From positions 1 to 55,081 of the forward strand of contig JAKAGU010000006.1 of assembly GCA_021825655.1 (NCBI GenBank): 55,081 bases of DNA. The letters run 5' to 3'. Each line of letters begins with the position of its first letter. Position 1 is the stretch's first letter. The position numbers were made by a program, and so were the translations under genes. The notes beneath the pieces are model-generated. The model made no database searches. It saw only the letters and a list, made by a program, of their open reading frames with translations, and had not been told where the DNA came from. This DNA is from a bacterium. Lineage in GTDB: Bacteria > Patescibacteriota > Doudnabacteria > UBA920. Below are positions 7,551-11,180 of the stretch, one piece after another.

Positions 7551-10500
7551 GGATTAGAAACATGATAAGGGTATGTGGTGAATGCCTTGGCAATATGAGC
7601 CGATGAAGGACGCGGCAGCCGGCGAAACGCCTCGGGGAGATGGCAAACAATCTTTGATCCGGGGATGTCCGAATGGGGAAACCTACACGCAGGAAGTGCG
7701 TGTGCTTTTGTGCCGTGGGGCACAGATAGCGGGAACCATGCGAAGTGAAACATCTCAGTAGCATGAGGAAAAGAAAGCAACCGCACCGCAAGGTGCGAGC
7801 GATTCCGTCAGTAGTGGCGAGCGAAAGCGGAAATGAATAGTAATTTATTCGTTGTCTAAGTTATAGTAGTGGACGGCGAATAAATTATCTATCAGCCCAA
7901 ACCTACCAAGTGTTTATTTGCAGCAATGCAAGTTTTAAAGCTTACAGGCGTTGCTAGGTAGGTGTAATAAGTGGAAGTTATTGTGAGGCTGTAACCTCAC
8001 AGGGAAAAAATGTGTGCTGTTTAGCAGAACACGCCTGGAACGGCGGACCAAAGAGGGTGATAGTCCCGTATAGCGAAAAACCATGCAATTTCCTAACTTT
8101 TTCTTGAGTACGACCAGACACGAGAAATCTGGTCGGAAATCAGGTCGACTAAGATCTAAGGCTAAATACTCATATTGACCGATAGTGAACAAGTACCGTG
8201 AGGGAAAGGTGAAAAGCACCCCGGAAGGGGAATGAAATAGTATCTGAAACCACATACTTACAAGGAGTCAGAGCCCTTACTACTGGCCGCAAGGCCTGTA
8301 GTGGGTAATGGCGTGCCTATTGAAGAATGATCCAACGAGTTAATCTTATGCGGCTTAATTAAGCCTTATCAAAGGCGAAATTATAGTGAAAGCAAGGATG
8401 AATAGTCCGCATTTAGGATTTTGATTGGTTGATCACCTATTGTTGGTGATTGACCGCTACAACTTCCTAATGGTCGCATGAGTTAGACCCGAAACCCGCG
8501 TGAGCTACGCATGGTCAGGATGAACGTTATGTAAAAGTAACGGGAGGTCCGAACCCACTATTGCTGCAAAAATAGGGGATGAACTGTGCGTAGGGGAGAA
8601 ATTCCAATCGAACCGGGTGATAGCTGGTTCTCCTCGAAATAGCTTTAGGGCTAGCGTCGAGCGTTCCCTTTAGAGGTAGAGCACTGAATCGAAACCTGCT
8701 GGGCAACTGGTAGGCTCGAACCAAACTCCGAATTCTAAAGATTTATAGCTCGGCAGTCAGTCCGTGGGGGCTAAGCTCCACTGGACAAATGGAAAAGAAT
8801 CCACACCACCGTCTAAGGTCCCCAAATCCTAGCTATAGTGCAAAGGATGTGGGGTTGCTCATACAACCAGGAGGTTGGCTTAGAAGCAGCCATCCTTTAA
8901 AGAAAGCGTAACAGCTCACTGGTCAAGCGATCCTGCGCCGACAATATATAGGGGCTAAGCTAGGTACCGAAGACGTGGATCGGCAGAAAATTTATTTTTT
9001 GCCGGTGGTAGAGGAGTGTTGTGTACAGGTTGAAGCGGTAGCCGTAAGGCGCCGTGGACAGTACACAAGTAAGAATGTTGGAATAAGTAATATATATAGA
9101 GGTGAGAATCCTCTTCGCCGAATATCCAAGGTTTCCAGGGCAACGATCGTCGTCCCTGGGTTAGTCGGTCCTAAGAGCGGGCCCCAAGGGGTCCGTCCGA
9201 TGGAAAATACGGCTGATATTCCGTAACCGCTATACAATTATCTAAGACGGGACGCATCGTGGTAACATTCGCGTTATCTGACTATTAGCGTTCCTGTATC
9301 CGTAGGGTGAGCCTCCTGGCAAATCCGGAAGCTCCGGGTGATTTATATTCTACCTCGCAAGAGATGAGTATAAAAAGCCTAAAGCCTGAAGATATGGGAA
9401 AACCTGGCAACGGGAATGAGTGTGAACCATGGTGTCAAGAAAAGCGTCGTAGTCATGTTGTATAGTGACCGTACCGCAAACCGACACAGGTGGATGGGGA
9501 GAGAATCCCAAGGCGTCCGGACCAATGTTCGTTAAGGAACTCGGCAAAAAAGCAGGTGTACCTTAGGTATATACCTTGCCCTTTTTGTGAGATTATATCA
9601 AAGCAGAAAGGGCCGCAGCGAAAGACCTCTCCCGACTGTTTACCAAAAACTTAGGTCCGTGCTAAAGCGTAAGCTGATGTATACGGGCTGATGCCTGGCC
9701 AGTGTCAGAAGGTCAAACCGCTCGCCGCAAGGTGGGTGGCCAAGCCCTGATGAACGCCGGCAGTAACTATAACTGTCCTATGGTAGCGAAATTCCTTGTC
9801 GCGTAAGTTGCGACCCGCACGAATGGCATAACGAGTAGAGGACTGTCTTAACGAACATTCCGATGAACTTACAGTGGCGGTAAAGATGCCGTCTACCCGC
9901 AGCAAGACGGAAAGACCCTATGAAGCTTTACTATAGCTTGTCATTGAAATTATGTTTGTGCTGTTTAGTATAGGTGGGAGCCTTTGAAACTTGGGCGCTA
10001 GCTCGAGCGGAGGCGCAATGTGAAATACCACCCTGCAGGAATGTGATTTCTAACCAATGCTTAACCTACATTGGGACAGTGACTGGTGGGTAGTTTAACT
10101 GGGGCGGTTGCCTCCTAAATGGTAACGGAGGCGTTTATTAAGGTATGCTAGGCATGGATGGAAATCATGCTGATAGTGCAAACGCATAAGCCTGCTTGAC
10201 TGCAAGGGCGGCGACCCGCGCAGGTACGAAAGTAGAAGTTAGTGATCCGATGCGTTCGAGTGGAAGACGCAAAGCCCAACGGATAAAAGTTACTCTAGGG
10301 ATAACAGGCTGATCCTCTCCAAGAGTCCATATCGACGAGAGGGTTTGGCACCTTAAACCTCAAAATCGGGGTGCTAGGACAGTGATGTCCTACCAAAGTG
10401 TCTTCGTTCCGTCTCTCTGGTTTAATACCGGAGGATAAAATTCGAAGAAAATAAATTCGGCTTATAACGGTGAACCCGTAGTTAATCATATGTGAAATAG

Positions 10501-11180
10501 ATTCTGATTAACCGGCAACCCCGTGGGAAGTCGCTCTGCCTTTTGGCAGGGTTGACCCCGTAACGACTGACCCGAAAGGGAAGACTTTTCAAGTTAAATT
10601 GGAAGGTAATACGCCGACTCTTGTCACCAAAAAAGCAGGCAAAGGCAACATTAGAACCTAACGCCGCTGGCAAGAAGAAGATATAGTCTGCCCCATACGA
10701 AAGTATGGAATTATGTACGATGTCGGCTCATCACATCCTGGGGGTGAAGAAGCTCCCAAGGGTTAGGCTGTTCGCCTATTAAAGTGGTACGCGAGCTGGG
10801 TTCAAAACGTCGTGAGACAGTTTGGTCCTTATCTGCTGTGGGTGTATGAAACTTGAGTGGGCGCATCTCTAGTACGAGAGGACCGAGATGCATTGACCTC
10901 TGGTGTACCCGTTGTCCTGTCCAGGGCATAGCGGGGTAGCTAGGTCGAGTTAAGATAAGCGCTGAAAGCATATAAGCGTGAAGCTGTCCACAAAACTAGG
11001 TTTCATTGTTGCGTAGCAATACGCAACTCCAGGTTCGGGGAAGACTACCCCGTATTTGTCAAAATTTAACAAAGTTTTGTAGCAATACAAAATCAGTTTT
11101 ATCGAGACTTTATAGGCTGCAGGTGTACGGACAGTAATGTCTTTAGCCGAGCAGTACTAATCAACCGAAAGCTTTAATCC
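7551..11180 (+). rRNA. rrl: 23S rRNA (with group I intron and hairpin insertions)
   Basis: Universal motifs (GAATGCCTTGG, AGTACCGTGAGGGAAAGG, GAAATTCCTTGTC, GGATAACAGGCTGATC, AGTACGAGAGGACC sarcin-ricin loop); ends GGATTA/TAATCC pair; ~3630 nt. Confidence 0.98.
10354..10717 (+). mobile_element. Group I intron (no ORF) at 23S position 2500 (E. coli numbering)
   Basis: Interrupts GGCACCT|CGATGTCGGC; IGS ATCGGGGTGCT pairs both exons; P7 GACTG (10565-69)/TAGTC (10684-88); S element AAGATATAGTCT; P9 CCATAC-GAAA-GTATGG. Confidence 0.93.

What the first reader, a model, noticed from the sequence alone, without database searches (positions are those of the whole stretch)
10354..10717. Group I intron in the peptidyl-transferase centre apparently ending in A, not omega-G
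Seen: a 364-nt ORF-less intron splits GGCACCT(U2500)|CGATGTC(C2501). The IGS ATCG-GGGTGCT (~10365-75) pairs contiguously with 5' exon GGCACCU (U-G wobble at the splice site) and 3' exon CGAU (P10), fixing the 3' splice site before C10718. The last intron base is therefore A10717 (...AATTATGTA). The nearest G (10715) would leave an extra UA inside the PTC. The P7 G-binding pair (G10565/C10688) is intact. Established: omega-G is near-invariant in group I introns; Coxiella Cbu.L1917 is the omega-A exception I know of. Inference: an independent omega-A ribozyme at a different site, or an unusual 3' splice-site mechanism.
Basis: partly seen in the sequence, partly recalled or inferred. Interest (0 to 1): 0.8.

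Follow-up and report, generated by a model that had tools for sequence, protein, structure and literature searches.

The report
Self-splicing rRNA intron ending in A
The 23S rRNA gene here is split at its catalytic centre by a group I intron whose last base is A instead of the near-universal G, and about a quarter to a third of the related introns sampled at this site share the A, which gives natural material for asking how the second splicing step works without that G.

Summary
A 364-nt ORF-less group I intron (window 10354-10717) sits exactly between E. coli U2500 and C2501 of the 23S rRNA, and the borders cannot slide. It has an IA-type core with P7.1 and P7.2. Its guide sequence pairs contiguously with both exons (P1 with a U·G wobble, P10), and a 2-bp P9.0 directly abuts the last base, A10717. 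The G-binding pair G10565-C10688 is intact.

The A is a lineage trait, not an error or a one-off. Of 94 L2500 introns from species-representative genomes, 35 end in A. In an independent metagenome sample that left the last base unconstrained, 29 ended in A, 91 in G, and none in C or T. P9.0 covaries and abuts the A in 59 of 64 A-ending introns, and in 18 of them the nearest upstream G is at least 6 nt away. Introns ending in A and in G are interspersed in the tree and have the same catalytic core. ORF-bearing relatives encode LAGLIDADG_2 homing endonucleases.

Most likely it is a working ribozyme that uses free G for step 1 and relies on P9.0 and P10 to place the terminal A for exon ligation. 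Splicing itself was not tested. I found no prior description in the literature I could search. The only precedent I know is Coxiella Cbu.L1917.

The parts
7552..11181 (+). 23S rRNA gene (host gene), 3630 nt including the intron
   Evidence: Rfam RF02541, 2249.8 bits, full-length model match; 67% identical to E. coli rrl
10347..10353 (+). 5' exon strand of P1 (GGCACCU, ending in U2500)
   Evidence: Pairs with 10369-10375. U·G at the splice site in 30/30 homologues, and five further pairs are invariant (helix 1)
10354..10717 (+). Group I intron, IA-type, ORF-less, 364 nt, inserted at L2500
   Evidence: Insertion mapped by alignment to E. coli; Rfam Intron_gpI 43 bits, E=9.5e-10; covariation-supported structure; no + strand ORF of 30 aa or more
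10365..10368 (+). Guide sequence, P10 part (AUCG), pairs with 3' exon 10718-10721
   Evidence: 100% paired in 30 homologues (helix 2). Extends to 6 bp in 27/35 A-ending relatives; 4 bp here
10369..10375 (+). Guide sequence, P1 part (GGGUGCU)
10376..10391 (+). P2 hairpin
   Evidence: All 5 pairs have changes on both sides (helix 3)
10401..10448 (+). P2.1, an optional peripheral arm absent from 11 of 30 relatives
   Evidence: helix 4 (75% paired); alignment
10457..10461 (+). P3 5' strand (pairs with 10613-10617)
   Evidence: 100% paired, 3 pairs compensatory (helix 5)
10467..10559 (+). P4-P5-P5a-P6 domain (P4 10467-70/10521-24; P5 10476-78/10513-15; P5a 10481-87/10506-12; P6 10525-27/10557-59)
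   Evidence: helices 6-8
10563..10569 (+). P7 5' strand: A10563 (first pair), C10564 (bulge), G10565 (G-binding pair), A, C, U, G
   Evidence: G10565-C10688 is G-C in 30/30. The first pair covaries, A-U 28 and G-C 2 (helix 9). The same strand occurs in G-ending relatives
10571..10607 (+). P7.1 (10571-10580, GAAA loop) and P7.2 (10584-10607), the hallmark helices of subgroup IA
   Evidence: helices 10-11 (93% and 92% paired, 8 pairs compensatory)
10613..10617 (+). P3 3' strand
   Evidence: helix 5
10620..10674 (+). P8
   Evidence: helix 12 (97.8% paired, 5 pairs compensatory)
10675..10689 (+). J8/7 (AAGAAGAUA) and P7 3' strand (UAGUCU)
   Evidence: AGAUAUAGUC is nearly invariant
10690..10691 (+). 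P9.0 5' strand (G, C in J7/9), pairs with U10716 and G10715
   Evidence: 100% paired with covariation (A-U 17, G·U 12, G-C 1; C-G 26, U-A 4) (helix 13). 59 of 64 A-ending introns pooled
10693..10708 (+). P9 hairpin with GAAA tetraloop
   Evidence: helix 14
10715..10716 (+). P9.0 3' strand (GU). G10715 is the 'nearest G' and is base-paired, not omega
   Evidence: This position is A in 18 of 64 A-ending introns
10717..10717 (+). Terminal intron nucleotide (omega position) = A
   Evidence: Invariant in alignment A1. It lies between P9.0 and P10. 35/94 and 29/120 L2500 introns share it
10718..10721 (+). 3' exon strand of P10 (CGAU, starting at C2501)

Best explanation
This is a functional, vertically retained copy of a mobile group I intron of the IA type (IA3 by comparison with published LSU/2500 introns). 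It is inserted between U2500 and C2501 of the 23S rRNA of a Patescibacteria (CPR) bacterium. Its omega nucleotide is A rather than G, and that state is maintained by selection in a large part of this intron lineage.

Proposed mechanism:
- Step 1 is canonical. Free guanosine binds the intact G-binding pair G10565-C10688 in P7 and attacks after U10353, which is held in P1 by a U·G wobble.
- In step 2, the 3' splice site A10717|C10718 is specified mainly by two helices that clamp it from both sides. The 2-bp P9.0 (10690-91 with 10715-16) ends immediately before the A. P10 (10365-68 with 10718-21) begins immediately after it.
- The terminal A needs little or no specific recognition by the G pocket.
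- The result is the canonical GGCACCU-CGAUGUC junction in the peptidyl-transferase loop.

Shown: the borders, the fold, the covariation, the intact G site, and the conservation and spread of the terminal A. Inferred: that the intron splices, that ligation occurs at A|C, and that P9.0 and P10 compensate for the missing G.
For: - **Borders.** The alignment to E. coli places the insertion at 2500/2501 with no freedom to slide. E. coli HSPs to relatives stop at 2500.
- **Fold.** 74 modelled pairs are 92.7% paired in 30 homologues, against 35-42% when slid. The covariation score is 0.392 against 0.06-0.09 for the slid controls, and 0 of 500 shuffles reach it.
- **Omega position.** P9.0 is 100% paired and covaries. 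Pooled, 59 of 64 A-ending introns have P9.0 directly abutting the A (A-U 38, G·U 20, G-C 1, U-A 2; C-G 42, U-A 18). The nearest upstream G is at least 6 nt away in 18 of 64.
- **P10.** It is 100% paired and is 6 bp long in 27 of 35 A-ending introns. The exon is invariant, so this reflects selection on the intron's guide sequence, which matters only for exon ligation.
- **Not an error.** 35 of 94 genome-derived and 29 of 120 metagenome-derived L2500 introns end in A. C and T were never seen in the sample that left this base unconstrained.
- **Same core as G-ending relatives.** The P7 strands are identical. No core column associates with the omega base; only the P9.0 3' strand does. A and G are interspersed on the NJ tree. 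L083 (...UAAUAU-G) and L040 (...CAAUAU-A) have matching tails.
- **Constraint in this lineage.** Against L038 the 23S is 90% identical and the intron 80%. Twelve pairs changed and all twelve are still paired.
- **Mobility.** Long A-ending relatives encode LAGLIDADG_2 endonucleases (E about 1e-40).
- **Precedent, from memory and title only.** Raghavan et al. 2007 reported that Coxiella Cbu.L1917 self-splices although it lacks omega-G. The title is cited in PMC11270868. I could not read the paper.
Against: - No RNA-level evidence was available: no spliced junction, no in vitro splicing, no reads.
- From memory of the classical work on Tetrahymena and phage introns (Price & Cech 1988; Michel et al. 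1989; Been & Perrotta 1991), changing omega-G to A with a G-C binding pair severely impairs exon ligation. On that basis an unassisted second step is expected to be slow.
- The window's own P10 is only 4 bp, shorter than the family norm of 6.
- G-ending relatives in the same clade also have long P10 helices, so P10 length is not a specific compensation.
- The Rfam score is below the gathering threshold (43 against 50).
- The NJ tree uses simple identity distances and is not a test of how many G/A switches occurred.
Confidence: 0.75

Rival explanations
1. A10717 is a sequencing or assembly error, and the real base is G.
For: A single-base call in a metagenome-derived sequence cannot be verified here without reads.
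Against: The same terminal A occurs in 64 independently assembled L2500 introns from two collections, including the 90%-related L038. It is invariant in alignment A1 while the neighbouring bases vary.
Confidence: 0.01
2. The true 3' splice site follows G10715, which acts as a canonical omega-G. The mature rRNA then carries an extra UA, or one extra A if the 5' site also shifts, in the peptidyl-transferase loop.
For: G10715 is the nearest G, and 42 of 64 A-ending introns have a G at this position.
Against: - The position is A in 18 of 64 introns, which then have no G within 6-11 nt.
- G10715 is base-paired in a covarying P9.0.
- P10 pairs the guide sequence with CGAU starting exactly at C10718.
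- An insertion between the universally conserved U2500 and C2501 is implausible. This rests on established knowledge of the peptidyl-transferase centre.
Confidence: 0.02
3. The intron is excised without exon ligation, by step 1 plus hydrolysis or nuclease trimming as for an intervening sequence, or it is not removed at all. The 23S rRNA is then fragmented or interrupted at 2500/2501, and the terminal A is tolerated because step 2 is not needed.
For: - Fragmented 23S rRNAs and an apparently unspliced group I intron in Simkania are on record (cited in PMC11270868; PMC1995217).
- Omega-A is expected to weaken step 2.
Against: - P10 and P9.0 matter only for exon ligation. Both are conserved and covary in A-ending introns.
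- The site lies in the central loop of the peptidyl-transferase centre.
- G-ending sisters with the same scaffold would be expected to ligate normally.
Confidence: 0.07
4. The terminal A is deaminated to inosine, which is G-like, before step 2. A tRNA adenosine deaminase of the TadA type could do this. Splicing would then depend on a host editing enzyme.
For: - The junction reads U-A|C-G-A. UACG is the core motif TadA recognises in the tRNA-Arg anticodon loop (from memory: Wolf 2002; Bar-Yaacov 2017).
- The base before the A is U in 50 of 53 distinct A-ending introns with an adjacent P9.0.
- Where its P9.0 partner is G, U is preferred over C 17:1, against 26:13 in G-ending introns (Fisher p=0.044, not corrected for phylogeny).
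Against: - No conserved hairpin presents UACGA as a 7-nt loop. At most 2 weak pairs can form in the window (read).
- The CG is fixed by the exon, and U at that position is also the majority in G-ending introns (42 of 55).
- As I recall from memory, Coxiella's A-ending intron splices in vitro without any editing.
Confidence: 0.04
5. Splicing of the A-ending form needs a protein cofactor, either a maturase-active LAGLIDADG protein or a host factor, that positions the 3' splice site.
For: Relatives encode LAGLIDADG_2 proteins. From established knowledge, some LAGLIDADG proteins act as maturases.
Against: Most A-ending introns, including the window's, are ORF-less. No candidate factor was identified.
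Confidence: 0.1

Closest known systems
Coxiella burnetii Cbu.L1917 (Raghavan et al. 2007, J Bacteriol 189:6572; known to me by title and memory, as the paper is not held)
   Same: A bacterial 23S rRNA group I intron whose last nucleotide is A rather than omega-G. It was reported to self-splice.
   Different: It sits at a different site (L1917, helix 69 region, against L2500 in the peptidyl-transferase loop). It belongs to a different subgroup: PMC11019260 calls its LAGLIDADG 'IB2-L1917', whereas this intron is IA-type. It was reported as a single case in one species, whereas this is a lineage with at least 64 A-ending members. No sequence relationship was tested.
LSU/2500 group I introns of subgroup IA3 (for example the archaeal IA3.2 and IA3.3 in Nawrocki et al. 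2018, PMC6125680; from memory, the chloroplast I-ChuI intron of Chlamydomonas humicola)
   Same: Same insertion site; IA architecture with P7.1 and P7.2; often carry a LAGLIDADG homing endonuclease gene.
   Different: I found no published statement that these introns end in A. The terminal base of the published examples could not be checked here. Bacterial L2500 introns are not in the 2007 list of bacterial rRNA introns (PMC1995217).
G-ending L2500 introns in the same public samples (for example L083, L104, L117, L022, L118)
   Same: Same site, same P7 strands and J8/7, same guide sequence, and often the same P9.0-then-omega arrangement.
   Different: The terminal base is G. Many have longer or different 3' tails (...CGACAG), or a spacer A between P9.0 and the G.
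Engineered Tetrahymena specificity switch (Michel et al. 1989; Been & Perrotta 1991; from memory)
   Same: An A at the omega position supports step 2.
   Different: In the engineered switch the G-binding pair was changed from G-C to A-U so that the pocket matches A. Here the pair stays G-C in 30 of 30, so this is not the natural counterpart of that switch.
rRNA insertion sequences of CPR bacteria (Tsurumaki et al. 2024, PMC11270868)
   Same: Group I introns, ORF-less or LAGLIDADG-encoding, clustered around the peptidyl-transferase centre of CPR 23S rRNA genes.
   Different: That survey classifies insertions by Rfam and Pfam hits. In the text I read it does not examine intron termini.

Membership tests
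Group I intron (Rfam RF00028; Michel-Westhof core) | Conserved core helices P3-P9 with the P3/P7 pseudoknot | tested here: met
   All helices are supported: 92.7% paired, 42 pairs with changes on both sides, and slid controls at 35-42%.
Group I intron (Rfam RF00028; Michel-Westhof core) | Score at or above Rfam's gathering threshold (50 bits) | tested here: not met
   43.0 bits, E=9.5e-10, full-length model match 1-253. The shortfall comes from long peripheral insertions. This is a curation cut-off, not a structural criterion.
Group I intron (Rfam RF00028; Michel-Westhof core) | 5' splice site after a U that forms a U·G wobble with the guide sequence in P1 | tested here: met
   U10353·G10369; U·G in 30/30.
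Group I intron (Rfam RF00028; Michel-Westhof core) | G-binding site: a G-C pair in P7 next to a bulged nucleotide | tested here: met
   G10565-C10688 in 30/30; C10564 is bulged; the first pair A10563-U10689 covaries.
Group I intron (Rfam RF00028; Michel-Westhof core) | Terminal guanosine (omega-G). This is a canonical, near-invariant feature but not part of the fold definition | tested here: not met
   The last base is A10717, as in 64 relatives. This is the point of the finding. I therefore file it as a variant of the kind, not as a canonical member.
Group I intron (Rfam RF00028; Michel-Westhof core) | Self-splicing by two transesterifications started by free guanosine | not testable with these tools
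   Needs in vitro transcription and splicing assays.
Subgroup IA (IA3) | Extra helices P7.1 and P7.2 between P7 and the P3 3' strand | tested here: met
   10571-10580 and 10584-10607; 93% and 92% paired, with 8 compensatory pairs (helices 10-11).
Subgroup IA (IA3) | Best match to an IA3-specific covariance model (GISSD/Nawrocki models) | not tested
   Subgroup models are not available here. The IA3 assignment is borrowed from published LSU/2500 introns (PMC6125680).
L2500 rRNA intron | Insertion between E. coli 23S positions 2500 and 2501 | tested here: met
Mobile homing intron (LAGLIDADG) | Intron-encoded homing endonuclease ORF | tested here: not met
   The window copy has no + strand ORF of 30 aa or more. 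The relatives L040 and L088 were scanned and match LAGLIDADG_2; L072 and L108 carry alignable ORFs of about 200 aa. The window copy is an ORF-less derivative or relative.
Natural A-ending group I introns (type case Cbu.L1917) | Terminal A at the structurally defined omega position | tested here: met
   The A lies directly between P9.0 and P10.
Natural A-ending group I introns (type case Cbu.L1917) | Sequence homology to Cbu.L1917 | not tested
The different subgroup and site make homology of the A unlikely.

The most novel reading that the evidence does not exclude
In this lineage the second splicing step does not use the guanosine pocket in the textbook way. One possibility is that the 3' splice site is defined purely by the P9.0 and P10 clamp, so that omega can be any purine. 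The most novel possibility is that the terminal A, which sits in a U-A|C-G context matching the TadA core motif, is deaminated to inosine by a host enzyme before exon ligation. That would make a ribozyme dependent on host RNA editing. The probability given here is for the editing version. I would give the 'pocket-independent step 2' version about 0.3.
Probability: 0.04. Interest if true: 0.9.

Novelty: new variant of a known kind. Interest (0 to 1): 0.68.

Why it matters
Omega-G is treated as a fixed rule of group I introns. Annotation tools and curators use it to place intron borders (for example PMC8208691, and the tFind scoring). The accepted mechanism has omega-G replace the free G in a single binding pocket for step 2.

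A natural lineage with dozens of A-ending members, an unchanged G-C pocket and G-ending sisters on the same scaffold gives matched natural pairs. These can be used to measure how much the pocket contributes to 3' splice-site choice and how much P9.0 and P10 contribute. They can also test whether a weakly binding omega has advantages, such as less 3' splice-site hydrolysis, less circularisation or less reverse splicing into mature rRNA.

There are practical consequences as well. Pipelines that force a terminal G would misplace the 3' border of roughly a quarter to a third of the L2500 introns sampled here, and so would predict a wrong mature peptidyl-transferase loop. CPR bacteria, from general knowledge, usually carry a single rRNA operon. 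If that holds for this organism, ribosome production depends on this reaction.

Tried and rejected
- **Sliding the borders or using another G.** Rejected, because no alternative gives both a terminal G and the canonical exon sequence.
- **Pairing of the terminal A with U10689 to make a 3-bp P9.0.** Rejected. That position covaries with A10563 in P7 (A-U 28, G-C 2), and it becomes C in some introns while the terminal A stays.
- **A compensating change in the G-binding pocket or elsewhere in the core.** Not found. The P7 strands are identical in A-ending and G-ending forms, and the mutual-information scan flags only the P9.0 3' strand.
- **P10 length as a specific compensation.** Only partly supported. 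A-ending introns average 5.5 bp and G-ending introns 4.2 bp, but G-ending sisters in the same clade also have 6 bp, and the window has 4 bp.
- **Literature.** Searches for 'L2500', 'Cbu.L1917', omega-A wording, omega-G wording, and IA3/P9.0/P10 found no description of A-ending L2500 introns. The Coxiella primary papers are not held.
- **Host labels.** The 23S genes of MAGs titled Gammaproteobacteria, Polynucleobacter or Nitrososphaerota that carry A-ending introns are only 69-76% identical to E. coli, like CPR. A true gammaproteobacterium scores 83%. I therefore do not count those titles as evidence of host range. Only Patescibacteria and Planctomycetota hosts are taken as secure.
- **Full-intron covariance model.** Not built, because the model length would exceed the calibration limit. 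MAFFT plus explicit pair counting was used instead.
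Full report
**1. What is in the window**

Rfam finds a complete bacterial 23S rRNA at 7552-11181 (+), followed by a 5S rRNA. There is no 16S rRNA in the window. A global alignment to E. coli rrl shows one large insertion: 364 nt at window 10354-10717, between E. coli positions 2500 and 2501, where E. coli reads TTTGGCACCT|CGATGTCGGC. The exon sequence on both sides is identical to E. 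coli. The bases at the two borders differ (T/A on one side, T/C on the other), so the insertion cannot be shifted without changing the mature sequence.

A permissive Rfam scan of 10300-10780 matches the whole Intron_gpI model at 10409-10709 with 43 bits and E=9.5e-10. That is below the gathering score of 50 because of long peripheral insertions. No + strand ORF of 30 aa or more lies in the intron.

**2. Anatomy**

Read and tested:
- **P1:** GGCACCU (10347-53) pairs with GGGUGCU (10369-75), with U10353·G10369 at the splice site.
- **P10:** AUCG (10365-68), immediately upstream and contiguous, pairs with the 3' exon CGAU (10718-21).
- **Core:** P2, an optional P2.1, P3, P4-P6, P7, P7.1 and P7.2 (the subgroup IA hallmark), P8 and P9 with a GAAA loop.
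- **P7:** A10563-U10689, bulged C10564, then G10565-C10688, which is the counterpart of Tetrahymena G264-C311 (the comparison is from memory).
- **3' end:** after P7 come G10690 and C10691, the P9 hairpin, a 6-nt linker, then G10715 and U10716, which pair back with C10691 and G10690 as P9.0. Then comes A10717, then the exon.

So the terminal A sits exactly where omega-G sits in canonical introns, between P9.0 and P10.

**3. Relatives: the A is a family trait**

*Genome sample.* I scanned one genome per GTDB species for any non-T base in front of CGATGTCGGCTC..., that is, for anything inserted after U2500. The preceding base was G in 79, A in 39 and C in 2. Ninety-three loci had both exon borders and an intron-sized insert of 150-1500 nt; together with the window's own intron that makes 94, of which 35 end in A and 59 in G. 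The A-ending ones share the window's 3' end (AUAGUC-NNN-P9 hairpin-GGAAnnRYA) and its 5' end (UAACAUAUCGGGGUGC).

*Metagenome sample.* An independent scan of JGI metagenome contigs used a pattern that leaves the last base free: AGATATAGTC, 18-48 nt, then CGATGTCGGCTC. It was also capped at 120 rows. It gave G 91, A 29, C 0 and T 0.

The terminal base in this lineage is therefore a purine, and it is A in roughly a quarter to a third of the sampled copies. Both samples are truncated, so these are rough proportions.

**4. Structure and covariation**

I aligned 30 ORF-less A-ending introns with 7 and 8 exon bases on either side (A1) and counted the structure above.
- 92.7% of cells are paired, against 35-42% when the partners are slid by 1-3 columns.
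- 42 of 74 pairs have changes on both sides.
- The covariation score is 0.392 against 0.06-0.09 for the slid controls, and no shuffle out of 500 reaches the observed values.
- P9.0 is 100% paired and covaries (A-U 17, G·U 12, G-C 1; C-G 26, U-A 4).
- P10 is 100% paired.
- The G-binding pair is G-C in 30 of 30, and the first P7 pair covaries (A-U 28, G-C 2).

Pooling both samples, 59 of 64 A-ending introns have a standard 2-bp P9.0 directly abutting the A. In 18 of 64 the nearest upstream G is 6-11 nt away. This removes the alternative that G10715 is the real omega.

P10 is 6 bp (AUAUCG or ACAUUG with CGAUGU) in 27 of 35 A-ending introns. The window's is 4 bp. Because the exon is invariant, conservation of the P10 half of the guide sequence indicates selection for exon alignment, and therefore for ligation.

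**5. Comparison with G-ending relatives**

- The P7 5' strand (CCCCGUAACGACUG) and the J8/7-P7 3' strand (AAGAUAUAGUCU) are the same in A-ending and many G-ending L2500 introns.
- Within the clade that contains both states, the only columns that associate with the terminal base are 10715 and 10716, the P9.0 3' strand. No P7, J6/7, J8/7, P3 or P4/P6 column does.
- On a simple NJ tree built without the last base, A-ending and G-ending introns are interspersed. A-ending introns occur in both P7 types (A-U and G-C first pair), and each type has G-ending neighbours. The tree is crude, so I do not count switches.
- Matched tails such as L083 ...GGGUAAUAU-G and L040 ...GGAUCAAUAU-A show the same scaffold with either purine.
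- Some G-ending relatives have P9.0, then a spacer A, then G.

**6. Lineage, host and mobility**

- The window's 23S is 90% identical over 2.3 kb, straight through the intron, to L038, a Patescibacteria MAG (WARV01000002.1). The intron was therefore inherited vertically since those two diverged.
- Their introns are 80% identical. Twelve modelled pairs differ and all twelve remain paired, so the ribozyme fold is under selection in this very lineage and the terminal A is retained.
- The four A-ending introns of 814-874 nt each carry an ORF of about 200 aa. The two that were scanned, from L040 and L088, match LAGLIDADG_2 at E about 1e-40. The closest solved relatives are I-SceI-type enzymes. The lineage is thus a homing intron and the window copy is ORF-less.
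- Secure hosts are Patescibacteria and Planctomycetota, including a 3.19-Mb contig for L036. MAG titles naming Gammaproteobacteria, Polynucleobacter or Nitrososphaerota look unreliable, because their 23S genes are only 69-76% identical to E. coli, like CPR, against 83% for a genuine gammaproteobacterium.

**7. How it most likely works**

*Shown:* the borders, the fold, an intact G pocket, the P9.0 and P10 clamp around the A, and conservation of the A.

*Inferred:*
- Step 1 is canonical, with free G in the G10565-C10688 pocket attacking after U10353.
- Step 2 joins U10353 to C10718, with the site fixed mainly by P9.0 and P10.
- The A contributes little specific binding.

From memory, classical work names three determinants of the 3' splice site: omega-G, P9.0 and P10 (Burke 1990; Michel 1990). 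Here two of the three are strong. Also from memory, changing omega-G to A cripples ligation in Tetrahymena unless the pocket is changed to A-U (Been & Perrotta 1991). The pocket here is unchanged, so the natural solution is different and remains unexplained in chemical detail.

Possible benefits of a weakly binding omega are speculation: less 3' splice-site hydrolysis, less circularisation, and less reverse splicing into the mature rRNA, to which the guide sequence is complementary over 11 nt here and about 12-13 nt in relatives with a 6-bp P10.

**8. Rivals**

- **Sequencing error:** excluded by 64 independent copies.
- **G10715 as omega:** excluded by P9.0 covariation, P10 and the copies that lack that G.
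- **Excision without ligation, or no splicing:** disfavoured by P10 and P9.0 conservation, but not excluded without RNA data.
- **A-to-I editing of the terminal A:** the junction reads UA|CG, the TadA core motif. U before the A is preferred 17:1 over C where its partner is G, against 26:13 in G-ending introns (p=0.044, uncorrected for phylogeny). This is a weak hint with no conserved hairpin, and I rate it about 4%.
- **Protein-assisted ligation:** possible.

**9. Known or new**

The group I fold, the L2500 site and IA3 introns at LSU/2500 are known (PMC6125680). CPR 23S genes are known to be rich in such introns around the peptidyl-transferase centre (PMC11270868). One natural A-ending intron is on record, Coxiella Cbu.L1917. 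I know it by title (cited) and from memory, and the paper itself could not be read. PMC11019260 refers to its endonuclease as IB2-L1917, a different subgroup and site.

A 2007 list of bacterial rRNA introns has none at L2500 (PMC1995217). Recent papers still treat a terminal G as the rule for placing borders. I found nothing describing A-ending L2500 introns. The searchable library is open-access only, so prior mention elsewhere cannot be excluded; I would put that at 15-20%.

I therefore class this as a new variant of a known kind. The window's copy is an ordinary member of that variant lineage.

**10. Verdict**

Interest is moderately high. The case contradicts a textbook near-invariant in dozens of natural ribozymes that keep an intact G pocket, and it supplies matched A/G pairs for experiments. 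It is limited by the Coxiella precedent and by the lack of any RNA-level evidence here.

Noticed in passing
window 1-7551 and 11389-11504: The 23S-5S pair has no 16S rRNA gene upstream within 7.5 kb; ORFs fill the space. The rRNA genes therefore appear unlinked.
   Followed up: no
window 7863-7969, 7978-8031, 8436-8472, 9335-9374, 11053-11108: The 23S rRNA has several insertions relative to E. coli that are not introns: 107+54 nt near Ec 293-301, 37 nt near Ec 655, 40 nt at Ec 1507 and 56 nt at Ec 2831. There is no Rfam hit in them. They could be expansion segments or intervening sequences.
   Followed up: no
L039 (CAVVSQ010000015.1, Planctomycetota MAG) and L073 (Cloacimonadota MAG): L039 reads GGCACCT-A-CGATG, a single extra A between U2500 and C2501. 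L073 reads GGCACCA|CGATG, which is U2500A. These are either assembly errors or real changes in a universally conserved part of the peptidyl-transferase loop.
   Followed up: no
L022 (NZ_VFIV01000003.1, Coxiella endosymbiont of Ornithodoros amblus): It carries an 832-nt L2500 intron of the same clade as the window's, but ending in G, with no ORF of 80 aa or more, which suggests a decayed endonuclease gene. It is notable because Coxiella burnetii is the species with the published A-ending intron at another site.
   Followed up: partly
L015, L018, L028, L032, L057, L076, L084, L095: These MAG records are titled Gammaproteobacteria, Polynucleobacter or Nitrososphaerota. Their 23S genes are only 69-76% identical to E. 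coli, like CPR bacteria, against 83% for a true gammaproteobacterium. The record titles are probably wrong.
   Followed up: partly
L104, L117, L092, L009 and many metagenome loci (e.g. L139, L197): A large group of G-ending L2500 introns ends in ...CGACAG. In many of them J7/9 reads CGAU, the same four bases as the start of the 3' exon, so part of the tail (GUCG or AUCG) could pair with either J7/9 or the exon.
   Followed up: no
pooled L2500 introns: In A-ending introns the base before the A is U in 50 of 53 distinct tails. Where its P9.0 partner is G, the wobble G·U is preferred 17:1 over G-C, against 26:13 in G-ending introns (p=0.044, not corrected for phylogeny). This is unexplained.
   Followed up: partly
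L070 (MHHQ01000005.1, Andersenbacteria MAG) and L133, L155, L215: A few A-ending introns have different tails (...CACAAAA...AUAUAAA...CAUUCGA) without an adjacent P9.0. These are possibly independent losses of the terminal G, or decaying copies.
   Followed up: no
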